From the IMG/VR virus record IMGVR_UViG_2778261564_000010: DNA of 4,241 bases; one strand, written 5' to 3'. The translations under genes and the position numbers were made by a program. Positions 1-4,241 of the stretch are shown piece after piece. Below the pieces are notes generated by a model. The model was given only the letters and a program-made list of their open reading frames with translations. It was not told where the DNA came from and searched no databases. How positions within the stretch are numbered: position 1 is the first letter of the stretch; each line of letters begins with the position of its first letter. Source of the stretch: a virus. Lineage: Duplodnaviria; Heunggongvirae; Uroviricota; Caudoviricetes.

Positions 1-800
1 TATTTCTCATTTACCCAGCGGCGACGTTTAGGTCGTTTCATGAAGGATTCCGGAGACTCCGGATCAACGGCAATGCTGACCACCGTCTTTTCCTGTGGTG
101 GGTTCTGTTGCTGGTGGGTGTGAGGCGGTAGCGCAATATTTTTTGTGCGCTGCTTCAGTATGCTGGTGGCGGTCTGCTCTCCCGGCACGATGTCGCTTTC
201 ACGGTACATTGAGCGGATTTTTTCCGCACGCCCCCCCAGCGAACGACGTAATACCGCTTCCGGTAGCGCGTCCGCCACCTGATTGCGGACCGCCCACCAG
301 GATAATTCAGCCAAAGATAATTCACGCTCCTGCGTACCGCTTATTGCGTGACCGATGACGTCAATCATCCATGCTGACAGGTTTTGATGAGCAAGTTGCT
401 CGAGTGATTCGGATGTCTGGTCACGCAGCTGGTTGTCGCAGTGCCAGCACAACACCATTGCGCCGGTACCATAACGGTGAATGACAGTTTCGCTGTGATG
501 ATAATCGCCGTGTGGCCACTGGCAGGATTTAATATGGCGCAACAGCCAGTCAGACAATGCACCAGCACCACCAGCAGCACGAATCACCCGTGCGTTACTG
601 AAAAACGGCAGCAATGTTTTGTCTTCCACCAGCGGCTGGCGAACGGCAGGAACGACCCCGGACGGCAGATTACGCATGCTTTTCGGTTCAGGCTCCACCA
701 GCACTCTAGGGTTATGAAATACTTGCATGGATTCACGACCCGGCCTAAGGACCACCAGCCCGAGTTCCGGTACCAGAACAGGTCGAAGTAATATCCGCAC
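1..800 (-). CDS. Prophage protein, DUF968/YdfU-like (N-terminal part; 3' end lies beyond window start)
   Basis: Hand translation of the minus strand gives an uninterrupted frame from GTG 800-798 to position 1 with no stop (VRILLRPVLVPELGL...MRNLPSGVV...CQWPHGDYHH...CWHCDNQL...KRPKRRRWVNEK). GGAGG lies 4 nt upstream of the GTG, immediately after the stop of the upstream ORF. Alternative in-frame starts are ATG 872, 728 and 677. It is missing from the ORF track because it has no in-window stop. Family assignment is from memory of YdfU-like proteins next to hokD in Qin-type prophages and is unverified. Confidence 0.6.
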   Translation of the reverse strand, partial: MRILLRPVLVPELGLVVLRPGRESMQVFHNPRVLVEPEPKSMRNLPSGVVPAVRQPLVEDKTLLPFFSNARVIRAAGGAGALSDWLLRHIKSCQWPHGDYHHSETVIHRYGTGAMVLCWHCDNQLRDQTSESLEQLAHQNLSAWMIDVIGHAISGTQERELSLAELSWWAVRNQVADALPEAVLRRSLGGRAEKIRSMYRESDIVPGEQTATSILKQRTKNIALPPHTHQQQNPPQEKTVVSIAVDPESPESFMKRPKRRRWVNEK

Positions 801-801
801 G

Positions 802-1074
802 TTACCTCCAGATGCGTTGCTGGAATGTGCGGGATGGGCGCGGTGAGCGTTCGGAATAAGGGAGCCTGACATAGATTATCCAGTGACGATAATCGAGGCT
901 GAGGGCTTTCTTAATCTCGTATCCGCGTCTGCGGTAGTTATGAATTAGCCATTCGGCCTGTTCTTCAGTACATGGTGGGTGTTGGTACCAGTCGGTTTTA
1001 AATGCGTGTGAACGCCGCCCATGCCGGATGGCAAGGTCGGTATCAGAATTGTGAAATTTGGTTTTGTGCGCCAT
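802..1074 (-). CDS. Hypothetical prophage protein (90 aa)
   Basis: ATG-initiated ORF from the track (MAHKTKFHNSDTDLAIRHGRRSHAFKTDWYQHPPCTEEQAEWLIHNYRRRGYEIKK...). Its TAA stop at 802-804 lies 1 nt from the GTG start of the downstream long ORF, an operon-like junction. Its own SD is weak (GAGAAAAC) and the C-terminal 15 residues are R/P/S-rich, so the true extent is uncertain. Confidence 0.45.
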   Translation of the reverse strand: MAHKTKFHNSDTDLAIRHGRRSHAFKTDWYQHPPCTEEQAEWLIHNYRRRGYEIKKALSLDYRHWIIYVRLPYSERSPRPSRTFQQRIWR

Positions 1075-1140
1075 CTGTTTTCTCTACTGGCGCAGCAGGT
1101 GTCAGGTGTTCAGGCTGACGTGCGAATTGTAAACCAGAAT

Positions 1141-1173
1141 GCCAGGAAAAAACAAAACCCGCCGAAGCGGGTT
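1141..1173 (-). terminator. Rho-independent terminator at the 3' end of the hok transcript
   Basis: On the minus strand: 7-bp GC-rich stem (AACCCGC / GCGGGTT) with a UUCG tetraloop, followed directly by TTGTTTTTTCC. Confidence 0.6.
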
Positions 1174-1177
1174 AAGT

Positions 1178-1192
1178 GCGGGTGCGTTGAGG
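1178..1192 (-). promoter_or_regulatory. hok mRNA 3' fold-back element (fbi-like), complementary to the 5' end of the transcript
   Basis: Minus-strand 5'-CCTCAACGCACCCGC-3' is the near-perfect complement (one bulge) of minus-strand 5'-GCGGGTGCTTGAGG-3' at 1568-1555. This long-range 5'/3' pairing is the known hallmark of hok mRNAs. Confidence 0.5.
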
Positions 1193-1241
1193 ATGCCTGA
1201 CTCATCAGAGGTGGCGAGGGATTTCCCCCTCGCCTGGTCTC

Positions 1242-1397
1242 TTACTCCTCAGGTTCGTAAGCTGTGAAGACAGCGACCTCCGTCTGGCCGGTTCGGATTC
1301 GTACCTCGCAGAGGTCTTTCCTCGTTACCAGTGCCGTCACTATGACGGTTAAACAGATGACGATCAGGGCGATTAACATCGCCTTTTGCTGCTTCAT
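1242..1397 (-). CDS. hok: Hok/Gef-family type I toxin (HokD/RelF-like), 51 aa
   Basis: Hand translation: MKQQKAMLIALIVICLTVIVTALVTRKDLCEVRIRTGQTEVAVFTAYEPEE, ATG 1397 to TAA 1242-1244. SD AAGGAG lies 8 nt upstream. The protein matches my memory of E. coli HokD (RelF) and has the hydrophobic N-terminal helix and conserved Cys of the family. It is absent from the ORF track only because it is shorter than the track cutoff. Confidence 0.9.
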   Translation of the reverse strand: MKQQKAMLIALIVICLTVIVTALVTRKDLCEVRIRTGQTEVAVFTAYEPEE

Positions 1398-1453
1398 AGC
1401 CTGCTTCTCCTTGACCTTTCGGTCCGTAAGAGGCTAATCTCTATGTGTCGCAT
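1394..1453 (-). CDS. mok: mok-like leader ORF (19 codons), translationally coupled to hok
   Basis: ATG at 1453-1451 preceded by GAGG at the spacing seen in the plasmid R1 mok region. The frame ends in TGA overlapping the hok ATG as ATGA. Inferred by analogy with the R1 hok/mok/sok architecture; the ORF is much shorter than R1 mok. Confidence 0.4.
   Translation of the reverse strand: MRHIEISLLRTERSRRSRL
1411..1440 (+). promoter_or_regulatory. Candidate sok promoter
   Basis: Plus strand TTGACC (1411-1416), 17-18 nt spacer, then CTAATC/TAATCT (1434-1440). The -35 overlaps the complement of the hok SD, as in R1 (TTGCGC-N17-TATCCT, from memory). Confidence 0.45.
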
Positions 1454-1520
1454 AGATATGGCCTCAGATTAATGTTAAGCGTCTTGCAGGACGCGTAATG
1501 TTAACTGGGGCTTTTCTCTA
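1447..1520 (+). ncRNA. sok: Sok-like antisense RNA (approximate ends)
   Basis: Lies opposite the mok translation-initiation region. The 3' part contains a nested hairpin (GTTAA-GCGTC ... GACGC-...-TTAAC) followed by GGGGCTTTTCTCT, similar to what I recall of the R1 Sok 3' end. Boundaries are inferred, not measured. Confidence 0.4.
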
Positions 1521-1554
1521 TCTGCCTTTTGGTGTTCATGCCTGAGACAGATAG

Positions 1555-1601
1555 CCTCAAGCACCCGCAGTCATTCTACTTAACTAAGATTTCCCCGCAA
1601 A
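1555..1601 (-). promoter_or_regulatory. Candidate hok promoter and 5' tac-like element
   Basis: Minus strand TTGCGG (-35, plus 1596-1601), 16 nt spacer, TAGAAT (-10, plus 1574-1579), then GCGGGTGCTTGAGGCT (plus 1555-1568). The latter resembles the R1 hok mRNA 5' end GGCGCUUGAGGCU and is complementary to the 3' element at 1178-1192. Confidence 0.45.
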
Positions 1602-1655
1602 CCGTTTTTGTCCGGCACAGTAAATATCCAACTAAACCAATGGCGTTCGCTGTAT

Positions 1656-1835
1656 TTACCGCCAGTATTCAATGCACATGACCGCCATGAACACCCCTAA
1701 AAAAAGGGCATTTATATGTCCAAACATTAATATCAAAACATCAACTTTTTCCATATACCTTGCTGTGAAGATGATGGGCATACATGATGCGAACAACCAG
1801 AACGCAACAAACAAAAACTGCAATGCGTTTTTCAT
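1656..1835 (-). CDS. Possible small two-helix membrane protein (59 aa)
   Basis: Internal ATG at 1835 of the 1656..1874 track ORF (which begins at a GTG) is preceded by AGGGGGAATA. Translation is MKNALQFLFVAFWLFASCMPIIFTARYMEKVDVLILMFGHINALFLGVFMAVMCIEYWR, with two hydrophobic segments. The region is very AT-rich, so hydrophobic composition may be an artefact. Confidence 0.3.
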   Translation of the reverse strand: MKNALQFLFVAFWLFASCMPIIFTARYMEKVDVLILMFGHINALFLGVFMAVMCIEYWR

Positions 1836-2005
1836 TATTCCCCCTACAATCAATGTGCAATAACATTTAAACACACCTCAATTTAGCCGGACATATAAAT
1901 ATCTAAACCAGAAAAAATCACTTACATAGCGTTACAAACTCTTTAGTCTAAATATTCATCGTAAAACATTCCCCATACTTATCAGCCCGTTCTGCGCCAG
2001 GTAGC

Positions 2006-2293
2006 TCATTGCCTTATCTGGGAATCTGTAATCAGGTTTCCGGATGCTGGTGGATTTTCGCATTTTAGTTGTTCATAAAAGTGCACAGCTTTAACCAGTT
2101 CTTCTGATGTAACCGGGACTGGCGGGGCAGTGAATAAGGCCTGAATTTCATAGTTCGGCCTGTCGTTACAATCCTCTTTTTTCGGTACATATTTCCAGTC
2201 ACCAGACCACTACTTCCCCTGAAAGTCCGTAACGCCTTTTTTTCACGTAGCGATATCGCCATGCCACTGTTTTTGCTTGCCCCGCCGTTTCAT
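2006..2293 (-). pseudogene. Decayed reading frame with two in-frame stops
   Basis: One minus-strand frame starts at ATG 2293 (AGGAAGG upstream): MKRRGKQKQWHGDIAT-TGA(2243-2245)-KKGVTDFQGK-TAG(2210-2212)-WSGDWKYVPKKEDCNDRPNYEIQALFTAPPVPVTSEELVKAVHFYEQLKCENPPASGNLITDSQIRQ-TGA(2006-2008). The long 3' segment looks protein-like but has no usable start codon. Confidence 0.3.
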
Positions 2294-2317
2294 GCCCTTC
2301 CTGATAATTAACCTCGC

Positions 2318-2494
2318 TCATTCATCGCCCCACTCATCACAATATGCTTCGACCGGAGTTTTTCCTGCTTCATAATCATCACGCCATGCTTCAGCATCAG
2401 CAGCACTGCCACCACGTAACTCTGCATAGTCCATTAACAGTTCATGCCATTCTTCAAAACCGACGTTGTATTTAGTTGAACCAAAATCAGCCAT
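2318..2494 (-). CDS. Small acidic protein (58 aa), unknown function
   Basis: Hand translation: MADFGSTKYNVGFEEWHELLMDYAELRGGSAADAEAWRDDYEAGKTPVEAYCDEWGDE. The ATG overlaps the stop of the upstream gene (AAATGGCTGA) and GAGGAAG lies upstream. Absent from the track because it is under 60 aa. Weak motif similarity (KYN near the N-terminus, YCxxW near the C-terminus) to the 70-aa protein at 3767..3979. Confidence 0.5.
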   Translation of the reverse strand: MADFGSTKYNVGFEEWHELLMDYAELRGGSAADAEAWRDDYEAGKTPVEAYCDEWGDE

Positions 2495-2669
2495 TTTGTT
2501 CTTCCTCTTCGTCTTTTATTTCGTGATATGAGTAATTGCAGTAGTTAAAGAAAATATCTTTTGCTTCGTCATGTATTTCATCAGGCGTCGCATCATCATC
2601 CACTTCGAATTCATCCTCGAAATCTCCACCGGCTATTCCCGTTTCAATAATTATTTTAAACTTTCGCAT
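2487..2669 (-). CDS. Small, strongly acidic protein (60 aa), unknown function
   Basis: Track ORF with ATG start: MRKFKIIIETGIAGGDFEDEFEVDDDATPDEIHDEAKDIFFNYCNYSYHEIKDEEEEQNG, about one third D/E. The start codon sits 7 nt downstream of the H hairpin element. Coupled to the downstream 58-aa ORF. Confidence 0.6.
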   Translation of the reverse strand: MRKFKIIIETGIAGGDFEDEFEVDDDATPDEIHDEAKDIFFNYCNYSYHEIKDEEEEQNG

Positions 2670-2676
2670 TTAACTA

Positions 2677-2697
2677 CCGCCCTTTCGGGCGGCCTCC
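2677..2697 (-). promoter_or_regulatory. H element copy 2: GGAGG plus GC hairpin with GAAA loop, immediately 5' of a start codon
   Basis: Minus strand GGAGG-CCGCCC-GAAA-GGGCGG, then 7 nt, then ATG at 2669. The 23-nt core (plus strand taccgccctttcgggcggcctcc, 2675-2697) is identical to 3739-3761. Confidence 0.6.
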
Positions 2698-2724
2698 TGA
2701 TGTTCTGAGGGTGCAGAAATCCCT

Positions 2725-2781
2725 CCGGTTAAGGATTAAATTTTTAACAGAGCTAAATTTAATTATTCAGTTCTGGATTTT
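2725..2781 (-). promoter_or_regulatory. P' element: AT-rich conserved promoter/operator-like element with dyad symmetry
   Basis: Homologous to 3987-4048 (ccggttaaggattaaattttt...aatttaattattcag versus ccagttaaggattaaatttta...aacttaattattcag). Contains inverted repeat ATTAAATTT (2735-2743) / AAATTTAAT (2755-2763) with an 11-bp spacer. Overlaps the stop of the upstream 118-aa gene. Confidence 0.45.
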
Positions 2782-3119
2782 GTCGCCCTGCGTATCCGCG
2801 CTTTCGCGTTACGCTCAATCTGAATTAGCTTTTCTATATTTTTTCGCCTTTCCCGCTCCTCCTGACGCAAGAGCCTTACATCATCTGCCAGTCTGGTTTC
2901 TCTTTTCGCCACAGAGAGCATCCAGTCAAATGGTTCCACAACTGCACCGCAGATTTTACAGCGGACCTGACGCTCTTTTTCGTCAACCCGGACAGAGGCG
3001 TGATGACAATATGGTCTTTCCGATGGCTCATAAAGAAAATTAACCTGATTACGAGGGTCATCCTCTTTTACCGGAAATAAAACGATATTGCTTAACTCAT
3101 CCTCTGGTTTTATTTCCAT
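2763..3119 (-). CDS. Zinc-ribbon-like protein with basic helical C-terminus (118 aa), unknown function
   Basis: Track ORF 2763..3176 begins at a GTG immediately preceded by TGA. The preferred start is ATG 3119, preceded by AAGGAGAGGAGC. Translation: MEIKPEDELSNIVLFPVKEDDPRNQVNFLYEPSERPYCHHASVRVDEKERQVRCKICGAVVEPFDWMLSVAKRETRLADDVRLLRQEERERRKNIEKLIQIERNAKARIRRATKSRTE, with a C-H-H...C-x-x-C cluster followed by an Arg/Glu/Lys-rich tail. Confidence 0.65.
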   Translation of the reverse strand: MEIKPEDELSNIVLFPVKEDDPRNQVNFLYEPSERPYCHHASVRVDEKERQVRCKICGAVVEPFDWMLSVAKRETRLADDVRLLRQEERERRKNIEKLIQIERNAKARIRRATKSRTE

Positions 3120-3240
3120 GCTCCTCTCCTTTGATGCGAATGCCAGCGGTAATTGAAGCCTGATAGCTAATTTCACTCACAGTACCGCCTCCTGAAAATT
3201 TAATGAACAATTCAATACGTTCTTTGGTAATAGTGGTCAT
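3097..3240 (-). CDS. Small protein (47 aa), unknown function; overlaps the start of the downstream gene
   Basis: ATG 3240 preceded by AAGGAG at 6 nt, overlapping the TAA of the upstream gene. Translation: MTTITKERIELFIKFSGGGTVSEISYQASITAGIRIKGEEHGNKTRG. Ends at TGA 3097-3099, 23 nt past the ATG of the downstream gene in another frame. A diverged copy of this segment exists at 4051-4164. Confidence 0.4.
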   Translation of the reverse strand: MTTITKERIELFIKFSGGGTVSEISYQASITAGIRIKGEEHGNKTRG

Positions 3241-3250
3241 GTGTTACTCC

Positions 3251-3514
3251 TTAACCCGCAGTGCTTTCAACTGATGAGGGGAACAAAATCTTTTCATCAA
3301 ACCCTGCATTCATATCATGAACAGCAACACACCAATCCATCGACGAACGATTATCAAGAGCCTCCATGATTTCATCCATGCGGCGTAGGTCATACAGGTA
3401 AATGCTTTTATCGCCAATGGTGTAAAAGCCAATTTTTTTCGGTGATGGACAGCGCTCAAGAACTTCCTGTAATTCGTTCAACCATGCCCGTTCTTTTTTT
3501 GTCAAAGTTGCCAT
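3251..3514 (-). CDS. Hypothetical protein (87 aa)
   Basis: Track ORF 3251..3604 begins at a TTG. The preferred start is ATG 3514, preceded by AAGGAA, 1 nt after the stop of the upstream gene. Translation: MATLTKKERAWLNELQEVLERCPSPKKIGFYTIGDKSIYLYDLRRMDEIMEALDNRSSMDWCVAVHDMNAGFDEKILFPSSVESTAG. Confidence 0.65.
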   Translation of the reverse strand: MATLTKKERAWLNELQEVLERCPSPKKIGFYTIGDKSIYLYDLRRMDEIMEALDNRSSMDWCVAVHDMNAGFDEKILFPSSVESTAG

Positions 3515-3515
3515 A

Positions 3516-3734
3516 TCAGTTTTCCTTATACGGATTAATTTTATTGTGCAGTGTGTTGAATGACGCCCATACCACGTCGTTATACAATTCAGTAACTGGC
3601 TCAATTATTTTCCCGATTGCCCAGACAAAAATTAGAGGGGATATCGGTATCATCAATACGATAAACAGAATGAGAAACAAAAATTCTGTCGCCCTACTTT
3701 TTTGCGGATATTCTTTTCTGAATAATGTAGTCAT
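3516..3734 (-). CDS. Small single-pass membrane protein (72 aa), unknown function
   Basis: Track ORF with ATG start, 6 nt downstream of the H hairpin element. Translation: MTTLFRKEYPQKSRATEFLFLILFIVLMIPISPLIFVWAIGKIIEPVTELYNDVVWASFNTLHNKINPYKEN, with one hydrophobic helix at about residues 17-41 flanked by charged residues. The stop is adjacent to the start of the 87-aa gene. Confidence 0.6.
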   Translation of the reverse strand: MTTLFRKEYPQKSRATEFLFLILFIVLMIPISPLIFVWAIGKIIEPVTELYNDVVWASFNTLHNKINPYKEN

Positions 3735-3740
3735 TTCTTA

Positions 3741-3761
3741 CCGCCCTTTCGGGCGGCCTCC
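3741..3761 (-). promoter_or_regulatory. H element copy 1: GGAGG plus GC hairpin with GAAA loop, immediately 5' of a start codon
   Basis: Minus strand GGAGG-CCGCCC-GAAA-GGGCGG, then 6 nt (TAAGAA), then ATG at 3734. The 23-nt core is identical to copy 2 although the flanking genes are unrelated. Confidence 0.6.
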
Positions 3762-3766
3762 CGACA

Positions 3767-3979
3767 TTAATCGTTGTGGTAACTCATGGCTTCATTTGCA
3801 GCATCAACCGGATCAACCTCCCACCAGCAATAATTTGGTGCGTTTCCTTCAGGTGTCCACGGTTCCAATTCATTTTTTGCCACATTCTCGTCGCCAGTAA
3901 TTTTAAAAATCTGCTCAGAGAATTTTTTCACCCACTCGTTATATTTTTCAGTGTTAATAATTTTCTGTGTATTTGACAT
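3767..3979 (-). CDS. Small acidic protein (70 aa), unknown function
   Basis: Track ORF with ATG start preceded by GGAGGT at about 7 nt. Translation: MSNTQKIINTEKYNEWVKKFSEQIFKITGDENVAKNELEPWTPEGNAPNYCWWEVDPVDAANEAMSYHND. Lies immediately downstream of the P element. Confidence 0.65.
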   Translation of the reverse strand: MSNTQKIINTEKYNEWVKKFSEQIFKITGDENVAKNELEPWTPEGNAPNYCWWEVDPVDAANEAMSYHND

Positions 3980-3986
3980 AGATATA

Positions 3987-4048
3987 CCTCCAGTTAAGGA
4001 TTAAATTTTATTTACAGTGCTGAACTTAATTATTCAGATTTGGATTAT
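3987..4048 (-). promoter_or_regulatory. P element: AT-rich promoter/operator-like element upstream of the 70-aa gene
   Basis: Second copy of the roughly 60-bp conserved element (see 2725-2781). Ends in the GGAGG used as SD for the ATG at 3979. Contains TGTAAATAAAAT, a possible -10-like sequence. No transcription start can be called confidently. Confidence 0.4.
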
Positions 4049-4050
4049 GC

Positions 4051-4164
4051 TTTCTCTTCACGAAGTTCCGATTGTTAATTTGGCTCACAACAGCACCTTC
4101 TGAAAATTACCCTGATAGAAAGCCAGTACACGCTGCATAGCTTCGCTCTTCCGGCACTCGCTAC
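4051..4164 (-). other. Degenerate partial third copy of the cassette, truncated by the IS
   Basis: Minus-strand ...TAATTTTCAGAAGGTGCTGTTGTGAGCCAAATTAACAATCGG... aligns with the 3180-3215 region (...AAATTTTCAGGAGGCGGTACTGTGAGTGAAATTAGCTATCAGG...) but with frame-disrupting differences, and then joins directly to sequence resembling the last codons of the 118-aa gene. No intact ORF. Confidence 0.4.
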
Positions 4165-4241
4165 TGAACCGCCCCGGGAATCCTGGAGACTAAACTCCCT
4201 GAGAAAGAGGTAAACAGGATGACTAAAAATACACGTTTTTC
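4165..4241 (+). mobile_element. IS3-family insertion sequence, left end (IS629/IS1203-like), continues beyond window
   Basis: TGAACCGCCCCGGGAATCCTGGAGACTAAACTCCCTGAGAAAGAGGTAAACAGG followed by ATGACTAAAAATACACGTTTTTC matches my memory of the IS629/IS1203 left terminal repeat and orfA start. Unverified recall. Confidence 0.7.
4219..4241 (+). CDS. IS3-family transposase OrfA, first 7 codons only
   Basis: ATG at 4219 preceded by GAGG; translation MTKNTRF... Partial at the window edge. Confidence 0.65.

What the first reader, a model, noticed from the sequence alone, without database searches (positions are those of the whole stretch)
2670..4164. Mosaic array of small-gene cassettes assembled from reusable promoter-like (P) and hairpin (H) elements
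Two conserved non-coding parts recur in different combinations on the minus strand: P - 70-aa gene - H - four-gene operon - P' - H' - 60-aa gene - 58-aa gene, with a degenerate third copy cut by the IS at 4051-4164. The flanking coding sequences are mostly unrelated, while the elements are near-identical (H) or clearly homologous (P). That is the signature of modular cassette exchange, as in phage moron or anti-defence islands, not ordinary duplication. None of the eight encoded small proteins is recognisable to me as a known family.
Basis: seen in the sequence. Interest (0 to 1): 0.75.

Follow-up and report, generated by a model that had tools for sequence, protein, structure and literature searches.

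The report
Reusable gene-junction adaptors in coliphage prophages
Two short non-coding sequences recur between small accessory genes of E. coli lambda-like prophages; they look like portable stop/ribosome-binding junctions, not promoters or terminators, and they are the points where these phages swap genes, a concrete example of the long-proposed boundary-sequence route to phage mosaicism.

Summary
The repeats are real: H (2675-2700 vs 3739-3764, 25/26) and P (2715-2782 vs 3980-4049, 81-90%) flank unrelated small genes on the minus strand. The claimed third copy (4051-4164) is the 3' end of a DUF977/lygF gene cut by an IS3-family element. The window is the nin-position segment of a Rac/Qin-type E. 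coli lambdoid prophage.

P is not promoter-like. It starts with CTGAATAATTAA (a stop in all three frames), continues with an AT-rich spacer and ends in a Shine-Dalgarno sequence. H is not a terminator (no T-run). It is GGAGG, a -15.5 kcal/mol GC hairpin with a GAAA loop, and 5-8 nt before the next gene's ATG. The layout resembles the split ribosome-binding site of T4 gene 38.

Modular exchange is well supported. In the viral contigs fetched, 155 of 162 P elements are followed by H; 9 upstream and 12 downstream contexts give 34 combinations. Every break in colinearity with Stx phage ArgO145 lies in P or H. The P'-H' unit occurs in 2394 of 5426 complete E. coli genomes and is essentially confined to Escherichia/Shigella.

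Verdict: a new, well-defined member of the known class of lambdoid boundary sequences. The translational role of H is inferred, not shown. Moderate interest.

The parts
4165..4241 (+). End of an IS3-family insertion sequence that truncates the DUF977/lygF gene
   Evidence: Homology with IS-free relatives stops at 4164/4167. The 77 nt match at 100% under 'IS3 family transposase' annotations, with 23,432 places in E. coli genomes.
4085..4164 (-). 3' end (last 25 codons plus stop at 4085-4087) of a DUF977/lygF-type gene.
   Evidence: The translation SECRKSEAMQRVLAFYQGNFQKVLL* is identical to the C-terminus of the intact 140-aa protein (plus stop) in L001.
3980..4049 (-). P element. It has a three-frame stop block CTGAATAATTAA (4026-4037), an AT-rich spacer, and an SD (GGAGG) 7 nt before the ATG of the 70-aa gene.
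   Evidence: Repeat families D1 and D4; minus-strand reading; conserved core with at least 5 unrelated upstream contexts; all 39 copies of the 70-aa gene have this leader.
3767..3979 (-). 70-aa gene (phrog_4659, unknown function, pI 4.5). It is the optional 'filler' between P and H.
   Evidence: ORF; PHROG 4.8e-51; the distance from P end to H start is about 24 nt (n=116) or about 225 nt when this gene is present (n=39).
3739..3764 (-). H element. It has an SD GGAGG (3757-3761), a hairpin at 3740-3757 (6 G-C pairs plus a closing G.U, GAAA loop), and a 5-nt spacer before the ATG at 3732-3734.
   Evidence: Repeat D5; folds (-15.5 kcal/mol, 96% of the ensemble); the SD-to-ATG distance is 22 nt, or 6 nt with the stem closed (read).
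3516..3734 (-). 72-aa DUF4014 gene (phrog_1832), with a hydrophobic core
   Evidence: Pfam PF13198 5.3e-26. In a protein-anchored sample, 61 of 80 copies lie behind H and 19 of 80 behind an ordinary AAAGGAGAGTGAT-ATG leader.
3512..3548 (-). Junction J4: the conserved 3' end of DUF4014 with an overlapping stop/start (TGATATG)
   Evidence: The same 3' end precedes at least 4 different downstream gene starts.
3251..3514 (-). 87-aa gene (phrog_1714, unknown function)
   Evidence: No relative among PDB sequences.
3097..3240 (-). 47-aa ORF (phrog_19884). Its C-terminal 27 aa match phrog_37408. In ArgO145 an Ea22-like gene occupies this position and overlaps the 118-aa gene in the same way. The ORF contains, in another frame, a relic resembling a DUF977 3' end (3162-3200).
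   Evidence: it overlaps the next gene by 23 nt, as the Ea22-like gene does in ArgO145; similarity D2.
3117..3146 (-). Junction J3: GCTGGCATTCGCATCAAAGGAGAGGAGCATG, a conserved gene end carrying the SD for the next gene
   Evidence: The same leader precedes the 118-aa, 87-aa, DUF4014 and Ea22-type genes in other loci.
2763..3119 (-). 118-aa gene (phrog_1621), with a CxxC-type zinc-ribbon-like motif. Its stop lies inside P'.
   Evidence: weak Zn_Ribbon_TF hit below the curated cut-off; no significant PDB relative.
2715..2782 (-). P' element. The three-frame stop block is at 2759-2770 and supplies the TAA stop of the 118-aa gene. The orphan SD GGAGGG is at 2721-2726.
   Evidence: In the predicted fold, GAGGG pairs with the CCCUC (2707-2711) of the 24-nt filler.
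2675..2700 (-). H' element. It has an SD GGAGG (2693-2697), a hairpin at 2676-2693, and a 6-nt spacer before the ATG at 2667-2669.
   Evidence: The SD-to-ATG distance is 23 nt, or 7 nt with the stem closed.
2487..2669 (-). 60-aa DUF7167 gene (phrog_1997), very acidic (pI 4.05)
   Evidence: Pfam PF23768 7.9e-15; pI; behind H or a near-H variant in essentially all 80 protein-anchored loci.
2318..2494 (-). 58-aa gene (matches the C-terminal part of phrog_519), acidic (pI 4.05). It overlaps DUF7167 by 8 nt.
1956..2321 (-). Frameshifted pseudogene that ends the array
   Evidence: RefSeq annotation in L001, 'frameshifted; internal stop'; the translation contains stops.

Best explanation
The array is a promoter-less, terminator-less stretch of the early rightward (nin-position) operon of a Rac/Qin-type E. 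coli lambdoid prophage. Its small accessory genes are joined by a few conserved intercistronic adaptors.

P is a universal 'end and restart' junction. CTGAATAATTAA stops translation in whichever frame the upstream gene arrives. An AT-rich spacer follows, then a Shine-Dalgarno sequence.

H is a structured ribosome-binding site. A GGAGG lies 22-23 nt before the start codon. A very stable 6-7 bp GC hairpin with a GNRA loop brings it to an effective 6-7 nt, as in T4 genes 38 and 25. Any gene placed 5-8 nt after the stem therefore gets a working initiation region.

Because these 26-110 bp units are nearly identical in many co-resident lambdoid prophages, they are the places where homologous recombination crosses over. 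Phage Red/RecET-type enzymes need only about 23-27 bp of identity. Such crossovers swap, insert or delete whole genes without breaking expression, both between phages and between the PL-distal and nin regions.

Shown here: the anatomy, the re-use with different cargo, and the breakpoints in P and H. Inferred: the split-RBS role of H (my estimate about 0.5) and the recombination mechanism.
For: Anatomy. P starts with a three-frame stop and ends in GGAGG 7 nt before the ATG of the 70-aa gene. H is GGAGG plus a hairpin of -15.5 kcal/mol at 96% ensemble frequency, and the stem-to-start spacer is 5-8 nt in 114 of 115 copies across unrelated downstream genes.

Leader comparison. DUF4014 and Ea22-type genes that lack H carry an ordinary AGGAG/GGGAG 5-6 nt before the start. 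H-preceded copies have only an A-rich spacer with no SD.

Conservation. GGAG is invariant or nearly invariant among 27 H variants. In the stem, C>T changes in the 5' arm (16) outnumber G>A changes in the 3' arm (3), p=0.004. The closing pair varies among G.U, A-U and G-C. Both points fit a hairpin in the coding-sense RNA.

Not transcription signals. There is no sigma-70 match in P and no terminator-like site at H.

Shuffling. 155 of 162 P elements have H at about 24 or about 225 nt, and there are 34 upstream/filler/downstream combinations in 149 units. Colinearity blocks with ArgO145 overlap by exactly H or P. The unit is found in the nin position and the exo-xis position. It is present in 2394 of 5426 E. 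coli genomes, up to 7 places per genome, so partner copies are available in the same cell.

Precedents. The T4 gene 38/25 split RBS (PMC3014915). Minimal pairing length of 23-27 bp for Redbeta, and acquisition of DNA from defective prophages by relaxed homologous recombination (PMC3945230). The boundary-sequence model (Susskind & Botstein 1978 and Clark et al. 2001, as cited in PMC3029335).
Against: No experiment bears on any step.

Stem covariation is uninformative: 91.5% of cells pair against 91.0% in shuffles, with one double change. The hairpin is therefore supported by thermodynamics and substitution asymmetry only, and that asymmetry could partly reflect mutation bias or shared ancestry.

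The 3' arm GGGCGGU is itself SD-like and lies 5-8 nt from the ATG, so H could instead sequester the true SD. Three DUF7167 copies that lost the upstream GGAGG also have a weakened stem. A few genes behind H carry their own SD 14 nt after the stem.

AT-rich P could still hold a weak or factor-dependent promoter that a consensus scan misses.

Most loci were chosen by exact matches to P or H, and IMG/VR holds many near-identical E. coli prophages. The counts are therefore not independent events.

Breakpoints falling in P and H are also what one would see if these were simply the only conserved stretches left between diverged genes.
Confidence: 0.6

Rival explanations
1. P is a promoter and H a terminator or hairpin, so each small gene or gene group is an autonomous, moron-like or PeSL-like transcription cassette that moves with its own signals.
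For: P is AT-rich and has a -10-like TAAAAT or TTTAAT (read). The overall pattern resembles the PeSL cassettes of T4-type phages (PMC2839356): a repeated motif pair flanking small ORFs of unknown function, with shuffling.
Against: No sigma-70 hit in either P copy, and the whole region scores at shuffle level. The -10-like hexamer is not conserved between P and P', and there is no -35. P contains the upstream gene's stop and the downstream gene's SD. H has no T-run and lies between an SD and an ATG. The order is P then H then gene, not terminator then promoter. The array is AT-rich as a whole, not cassette by cassette.
Confidence: 0.1
2. H is mainly an mRNA stability or processing element. It could be a 3' barrier that protects the upstream cistron (the 70-aa gene) from exonucleases. 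It could also become a 5'-terminal stem-loop protecting the downstream cistron after RNase E cuts in the AU-rich P spacer. Its position next to start codons would then be secondary.
For: The GNRA hairpin is very stable. The adjacent AU-rich tract in P is a plausible RNase E target. Intercistronic stabiliser hairpins are well known in E. coli operons (general knowledge). H always follows either the 70-aa gene or P.
Against: This does not explain the tight 5-8 nt spacing to unrelated start codons, the invariant GGAG just 5' of the stem, or the absence of any other SD for H-preceded genes. The two roles are not exclusive.
Confidence: 0.15
3. H is a translational gate, not an enhancer. The real SD would be the GGCGGU of the 3' arm, locked in the hairpin. 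The downstream gene would then be kept silent, or translated only when an upstream ribosome or a factor melts the stem.
For: GGCGGU matches GGAGGU at 5 of 6 positions and lies 5-8 nt before the ATG. Variants lacking the upstream GGAGG have a weakened stem. The phi24B 't3' hairpin sits directly before an ATG without an upstream GGAGG (PMC4195576). SD-sequestering hairpins are common in T4 (PMC3014915).
Against: In the commonest form (P-short, 116 of 155 units) the nearest upstream stop codon is about 65 nt away, so no terminating ribosome can open a -15.5 kcal/mol stem. That would leave widespread, conserved genes essentially untranslated. The upstream GGAG is as conserved as the stem.
Confidence: 0.12
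4. There is no special element. P and H are just the intergenic regions of one ancestral block (118-aa gene - P - 70-aa gene - H - DUF7167, as in ArgO145). Duplication and deletion copied them, and they look conserved because the prophages are recent relatives.
For: P's homology extends about 18 nt into the 3' end of the 118-aa gene in several upstream contexts. The ancestral-looking order exists in ArgO145. Many contigs are near-identical.
Against: At least three upstream contexts (U3, U4, U6) join exactly at CTGAATAATTAA with no 118-aa-gene remnant, and downstream families diverge immediately after the stem. The same cargo (DUF4014) is found with H and with a different leader. The flanking genes within the window are unrelated while H is 25/26 identical.
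Confidence: 0.08
5. P'-H' is a nut-like antitermination site (a boxA-like AGCTCTGTTAAAAATTTAA plus a boxB-like GNRA hairpin), or a target of a site-specific or homing enzyme.
For: P' resembles lambda nutL boxA and its spacer (from my memory of the lambda sequence; not tested). The hairpin has a GAAA loop. An HNH endonuclease gene lies next to a unit in ArgO145.
Against: The boxA-like string is not conserved in other P copies, which read AGCACTGTAAAT. The distance from boxA to the hairpin is about 50 nt rather than about 8. There are several copies per operon, deep inside it, each abutting a start codon. The window and most loci have no HNH gene or integrase next to the units. No Rfam family matches.
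Confidence: 0.03

Closest known systems
Short conserved boundary (linker) sequences of lambdoid phages (Susskind & Botstein 1978 modular theory; Clark et al. 2001, HK620), as cited in PMC3029335
   Same: Short conserved sequences lie at gene or module junctions of lambdoid phages. Non-homologous modules flank them in different phages. They are proposed crossover points for homologous recombination. P and H fit each of these points.
   Different: P and H are a specific, high-copy pair with recognisable expression signals (three-frame stop, SD, hairpin RBS). Among 50,697 deposited phages they are absent from lambda, P22, HK620 and HK97. I could not read Clark et al. 2001 to compare sequences.
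PeSL (promoter-early stem-loop) cassettes of T4-type phages (Arbiol et al. 2010, PMC2839356; Comeau et al. 2014, PMC4122927)
   Same: A repeated composite motif flanks small genes of unknown function in hyperplastic regions, and recombination between copies shuffles, inserts and deletes genes.
   Different: PeSLs are strong sigma-70 promoters plus efficient terminators, so they act on transcription. They occur in virulent myoviruses. Here there is no promoter consensus and no terminator. The signals act on translation inside one long operon of temperate lambdoid phages.
Split (hairpin-bridged) ribosome-binding sites of T4 genes 38 and 25 (Nivinskas et al. 1999; Malys & Nivinskas 2009; reviewed in PMC3014915)
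   Same: The SD lies too far from the AUG (22 nt in gene 38; 22-23 nt here). An intervening stable hairpin brings it to a functional 5-11 nt (6-7 nt here). There is no other SD in the spacer.
   Different: In T4 the structure belongs to one gene and was proven by mutation and probing. Here one and the same leader serves at least 5 unrelated gene families and is only predicted.
Morons of lambdoid phages (Juhala et al. 2000; Hendrix et al. 2000; from my own knowledge)
   Same: Extra small genes of unknown function, with low GC, sit between conserved phage genes.
   Different: A moron carries its own promoter and terminator and is expressed from the prophage. These cassettes show neither and are packed with overlapping stops and starts, like ordinary operon genes.
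Integron gene cassettes with attC sites (from my own knowledge)
   Same: Promoter-less cassettes are separated by structured, palindromic repeats, and cassette order is variable.
   Different: attC sites are 57-141 bp imperfect palindromes recombined by an IntI integrase. H is an 18-nt perfect hairpin, no integron integrase is nearby, and exchange is best explained by homologous recombination.

Membership tests
Lambdoid boundary/linker sequences | Short conserved sequence located at a gene or module junction | tested here: met
   P spans the upstream stop to the downstream SD. H spans an SD to 5-8 nt before a start codon.
Lambdoid boundary/linker sequences | The same sequence is flanked by non-homologous modules in different phages | tested here: met
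   9 upstream and 12 downstream DNA clusters give 34 combinations in 149 units. DUF4014 is found with and without H.
Lambdoid boundary/linker sequences | Recombination joints coincide with the sequence | tested here: met
   All colinearity blocks between the window and ArgO145 end in, and overlap by, H or P. This is one phage pair only; a population-wide test was not done.
Lambdoid boundary/linker sequences | Long enough for homologous pairing by phage or host recombinases | tested here: met
   H has 25/26 identity within the window and 23 nt exact in 129 of 183 copies. The P'-H' unit of 110 nt is at least 99% identical in 906 E. coli records. The minimal pairing length is 23-27 bp for Redbeta and 31-34 bp for RecA (PMC3945230).
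Split RBS (T4 gene 38/25 type) | SD-to-AUG distance too long for direct initiation | tested here: met
   22 nt (H) and 23 nt (H'), read from the sequence.
Split RBS (T4 gene 38/25 type) | Stable hairpin between SD and AUG that restores a 5-11 nt spacing | tested here: met
   -15.5 kcal/mol at 96% of the ensemble. The residual spacing is 6-7 nt here and 5-8 nt in 114 of 115 copies. This is a prediction only.
Split RBS (T4 gene 38/25 type) | No alternative SD next to the start codon | tested here: inconclusive
   The spacers are A-rich with no SD, but the 3' arm GGCGGU is SD-like when unfolded.
Split RBS (T4 gene 38/25 type) | Stem-disrupting mutations lower translation and compensatory ones restore it | not testable with these tools
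   This needs reporter fusions. Natural covariation is uninformative.
PeSL cassette | Strong sigma-70-like early promoter in the motif | tested here: not met
   No consensus hit in P or P', and the candidate -10 is not conserved between copies.
PeSL cassette | Stem-loop that acts as a transcription terminator | tested here: not met
   No T-run after the stem on either strand, and no terminator-like call.
PeSL cassette | Flanks small variable ORFs and mediates modular shuffling | tested here: met
Moron | Own promoter and own terminator flanking the inserted gene | tested here: not met
   Gene ends overlap or abut one another.
Intrinsic terminator | GC-rich stem followed by a U-tract | tested here: not met
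   The stem is followed by AAGAAAUG or AGUUAAAUG on the coding strand and by CCTCC on the other strand.
nut site (boxA + boxB) | Conserved boxA about 8 nt upstream of a boxB hairpin, once near the start of an operon | tested here: not met
   The boxA-like string is not conserved among P copies. The spacing is about 50 nt. There are multiple copies deep in the operon. No Rfam match.
Integron attC | Imperfect 57-141 bp palindrome plus a neighbouring IntI integrase | tested here: not met
   H is an 18-nt perfect hairpin, and no integron integrase appears in 22 kb of context.

The most novel reading that the evidence does not exclude
P-H is a dedicated 'plug-and-play' expression adaptor specific to Escherichia lambdoid phages. 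It combines a frame-independent stop, a decoy SD masked by an anti-SD-like CCCUC, and a hairpin-bridged SD that gives any gene placed 5-8 nt downstream a ready-made initiation site. Selection would maintain it because it lets phages capture and exchange accessory genes by Red/RecET-type recombination, between prophages in one cell and between the PL and PR operons. It would be a translation-level, temperate-phage counterpart of the T4 PeSL cassettes, and the first split RBS shown to be portable.
Probability: 0.3. Interest if true: 0.6.

Novelty: new member of a known kind. Interest (0 to 1): 0.38.

Why it matters
Whether lambdoid mosaicism arises at conserved linker sequences or by illegitimate recombination followed by selection is a long-standing argument. 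Concrete, countable linkers are rare in the literature I could search. P and H give a precisely defined, abundant pair (present in about 44% of complete E. coli genomes) whose flanks are demonstrably shuffled. That makes the linker model directly testable in crosses, with or without the elements. If the hairpin-bridged RBS is confirmed, it would also show that a split RBS can be a transferable module rather than a peculiarity of one gene. It would be a practical annotation aid for finding the true starts of small prophage genes, and it would help avoid calling such hairpins terminators.

Tried and rejected
- **Rfam:** a scan of the whole window at E<=1 found nothing at P or H. It found only sok, plus sub-threshold chance-level hits.
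- **Promoter/terminator scan:** no promoter in P and no terminator at H; hit counts were at shuffle level.
- **Covariation of the H stem:** 27 variants gave no signal beyond shuffles. Only the substitution asymmetry is suggestive.
- **Origin of the 24-nt filler:** I tested whether it is a deletion remnant of the 70-aa gene. The global alignment gave only scattered matches, so I rejected this.
- **Literature:** a full-text search for the hairpin sequence found 0 papers. Clark et al. 2001 is not held. The exo-xis papers describe predicted promoters and terminators elsewhere, not these elements.
- **Cargo function:** PDB sequence searches for the 118-aa and 87-aa proteins found nothing significant. 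Pfam and PHROG give only families of unknown function.
- **Technical failures:** a first fuzzy-regex scan timed out and was replaced by BLAST. Two family scans and one script failed on a bad coordinate or file name and were rerun.
- **Not attempted:** structure prediction of the cargo, large protein-database searches, and a metagenome scan. None bears on what P and H are.

Full report
**What the window is.** All genes lie on the minus strand. An IS-free relative (E. coli Z0117EC0013, locus L001, 98.3% identical over window 1-4167) shows the context. The order there is repressor/cro, ydaT, replication genes (an HTH protein and a DnaC-like ATPase), DUF1627, DUF977, the small-gene array, hokD, a rem-like gene, DUF968/ydfU, rusA, and a DUF1133 (Q-type) gene followed by the lysis genes. 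The array therefore occupies the nin position of the early rightward operon of a Rac/Qin-type lambdoid prophage. Phage Rac-SA53 has the same layout, with lygF as the DUF977 gene. In the window, the DUF977 gene is cut at 4164/4165 by the end of an IS3-family element. hokD with its sok antisense RNA lies at 1242-1566.

**Checking the observation.** The repeat finder reproduces the two elements:
- H: 2675-2700 vs 3739-3764, 25/26 identical.
- P: 2715-2782 vs 3980-4049, 81-90% identical.

It runs P, 70-aa gene, H, four genes (72, 87, 47 and 118 aa), P', H', 60-aa gene, 58-aa gene.

The 'degenerate third copy' is not a copy. 4088-4164 encodes the last 25 residues of DUF977, identical to the intact protein, with the stop at 4085-4087. 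One real local similarity exists there: 4070-4108 vs 3162-3200, 30/39 matches, reached by 0 of 200 shuffles. It matches the interior of the 47-aa ORF in a different frame. That makes it a relic of an older junction, not part of P or H.

Two of the proteins belong to Pfam families (DUF4014, DUF7167), and all seven have PHROG families. Every one of these is of unknown function.

**What P and H are, read on the coding strand.**

P begins with CTGAATAATTAA, which contains TGA, TAA and TAA in the three frames.
- In P' this block supplies the stop codon of the 118-aa gene.
- An AT-rich spacer follows, then GGAGG.
- In P, the ATG of the 70-aa gene comes 7 nt after the GGAGG. All 39 copies of that gene in the loci examined have this leader.
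- In P' the GGAGGG is followed by a 24-nt filler. The filler's CCCUC is predicted to pair with the GGAGGG. H' comes next.

H is GGAGG, then CCGCCC-GAAA-GGGCGG (with a closing G.U pair), then 5-6 nt, then the ATG of the next gene.
- The isolated hairpin folds at -15.5 kcal/mol and takes 96% of the ensemble.
- There is no T-run on either strand. The scan finds no terminator-like site at H and no sigma-70-like site in P.
- No Rfam family matches either element.

The labels 'promoter-like' and, by implication, 'terminator' are therefore not supported. Both elements carry translation signals.

- The 110-nt P'-H' unit is present in 2394 of 5426 complete E. coli genomes, at 1-7 places per genome. 3381 places are chromosomal and 16 are on plasmids.
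- In a collection with one genome per species, H occurs only in E. coli, in two Shigella flexneri genomes, and on a 3-kb scaffold of a Collinsella MAG, which is probably contamination.
- Only 21 of 50,697 deposited phage genomes have the unit. These are induced E. coli prophages, ArgO145-type Stx2a phages, Rac-type phages and mEp460. Lambda, P22, HK620 and HK97 do not have it.

**Re-use with different cargo.** Upstream of H there are only two contexts: the P' filler, or the end of the 70-aa gene. Downstream there are many different genes, and they diverge immediately after the stem.
- Of 162 P elements in the loci held, 155 are followed by H. The gap is about 24 nt in 116 cases and about 225 nt in 39 cases, where the 70-aa gene lies between.
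- Flanking DNA falls into 9 upstream and 12 downstream clusters. These give 34 different combinations in 149 units.
- At least three upstream contexts join exactly at the three-frame stop.
- Aligning the window with Stx2a phage ArgO145 gives these blocks: 2273-2700, 2675-2770, 2719-3147, 3485-3764 and 3739-4049. Each maps to a different place in the phage. Neighbouring blocks overlap by exactly H or P.
- In ArgO145 the pieces sit in the PL-distal exo-xis region. Their order is 118-aa gene, P, 70-aa gene, H, DUF7167, 58-aa gene, Ea22-like gene, P'-H', DUF4014. That is a permutation of the window's order.

**Evidence that H belongs to the translation initiation region.**
- The spacer between the stem and the start codon is 5-8 nt in 114 of 115 copies, although the downstream genes are unrelated.
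- To remove selection bias, loci were fetched through the cargo proteins instead. DUF4014 is behind H in 61 of 80 loci and behind AAAGGAGAGTGAT-ATG, an ordinary SD, in 19. DUF7167 is behind H or a near variant in essentially all 80.
- So genes without H have a normal SD 5-6 nt from the start. Genes with H have only an A-rich spacer, and their nearest SD is the GGAGG on the far side of the hairpin.
- That GGAGG is 22 nt (H) or 23 nt (H') from the ATG, and 6-7 nt with the stem closed. This is the arrangement proven for T4 gene 38 (22 nt reduced to 5) and gene 25 (27 reduced to 11) (PMC3014915).
- GGAG is invariant or nearly so among 27 H variants.
- Formal covariation is uninformative: 91.5% of cells pair against 91.0% in shuffles.
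- Substitutions are asymmetric: 16 C>T in the 5' arm against 3 G>A in the 3' arm (p=0.004). The closing pair alternates among G.U, A-U and G-C. This is what a hairpin in the coding-sense RNA would tolerate.

The main alternative is that the SD-like 3' arm (GGCGGU) is the real SD and the hairpin masks it. I rate this lower. In the commonest form, no upstream ribosome comes within about 65 nt to open a -15.5 kcal/mol stem. Only experiments can settle the question.

**How it most likely works.** P and H are intercistronic adaptors inside one long operon. They end translation of whatever lies upstream and restart it for whatever lies downstream.

They are also the only near-identical stretches shared by otherwise unrelated gene neighbourhoods, and many E. 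coli strains carry several copies in different prophages. That makes them natural crossover points for homologous recombination. Redbeta needs about 23-27 bp of identity and RecA 31-34 bp, and Rad52-like phage recombinases are known to pull DNA from defective prophages by relaxed homologous recombination (PMC3945230).

Exchange at these points moves whole genes and keeps them expressed. Two further junction types behave in the same way:
- J3 at 3117-3146, the conserved end of Ea22-type genes, which carries the next gene's SD.
- J4 at 3512-3548, the end of DUF4014, with an overlapping TGATATG.

The array is therefore a patchwork held together by a small set of such joints.

**Comparison with what is known.**
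- **Boundary sequences.** The idea of short conserved boundary sequences in lambdoid phages goes back to Susskind & Botstein (1978) and Clark et al. (2001), cited in PMC3029335. P and H meet every feature of that class that I could test.
- **PeSL cassettes.** P and H resemble the PeSL cassettes of T4-type phages in what they do to genomes. They fail both defining PeSL features, the promoter and the terminator (PMC2839356).
- **Other classes.** They are not morons, intrinsic terminators, nut sites or attC sites. The membership table gives the details.
- **Prior description.** I found none of these particular sequences: no paper holds the hairpin string, and the classical phages lack them. I could not read Clark et al. 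2001 itself.

**Verdict.** The exchange interpretation is correct. The functional labels are wrong. The finding is a well-defined new member of a known class of phage boundary sequences, with a plausible but unproven hairpin-bridged RBS. Interest is moderate (0.38).

Noticed in passing
window 1152-1566 (-): hokD (1242-1397) with its sok antisense RNA (Rfam RF01794, 106.7 bits, 1395-1566). A hairpin plus T-run after hokD gives a weak isrK-like hit (26 bits, below the gathering score of 50). This puts an apparent intrinsic terminator inside the early operon, upstream of rusA/Q.
   Followed up: partly
window 1651-2100: GC minimum of the window (36-37%). It holds a hydrophobic 72-aa ORF (1656-1874, minus strand) that RefSeq does not annotate in the close relative. 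This could be an unannotated small membrane protein, or just AT-rich spacer.
   Followed up: no
window 1956-2321 (-): Frameshifted pseudogene at the end of the array. Its distal part (1956-2040) is 79% identical to ArgO145 5098-5182.
   Followed up: partly
window 4165-4241; L341 7094-7859: An IS3-family element cuts the DUF977/lygF gene just upstream of P here. In Rac-SA53 an IS1 sits about 30 nt after its P'-H' unit. Two independent IS insertions lie next to these AT-rich junctions.
   Followed up: partly
window 3117-3146 and 3512-3548 (-): Two more recurrent junction sequences. J3 is GCTGGCATTCGCATCAAAGGAGAG(GAGC/TGAT)ATG. J4 is ...AATCCGTATAAGGAAAACTGATATG. Each precedes several unrelated genes in other prophages, so the whole array is stitched from a small set of conserved joints.
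   Followed up: partly
window 3162-3200 vs 4070-4108: Non-random 30/39 similarity between the last codons of DUF977 and the inside of the 47-aa ORF, in a different frame. It suggests the 47-aa ORF is a chimera built over an older DUF977-type gene end.
   Followed up: partly
window 2318-2669 (-): The DUF7167 protein (60 aa) and the 58-aa protein are both extremely acidic (pI 4.05; 20 and 16 D+E). Some phage DNA-mimic or anti-restriction proteins have this property. No homology evidence for that role was found or sought.
   Followed up: no
hit H57 (PP818812.1 11316-11422); L180 1282-1304: The P'-H' unit is 92.5% identical in a phage deposited as an Actinobacillus pleuropneumoniae phage. Exact H is on a 3-kb scaffold of a Collinsella MAG. 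These hosts are unexpected for an element otherwise restricted to Escherichia/Shigella, so misattribution or contamination is possible.
   Followed up: no
phi24B exo-xis region (PMC4195576, Table 4): The published predicted terminator t3 of phi24B (AACCGCC-TTCG-GGCGGTT-TATT-ATG) is also a GC hairpin directly before an ATG. It may be another structured start region rather than a terminator.
   Followed up: no
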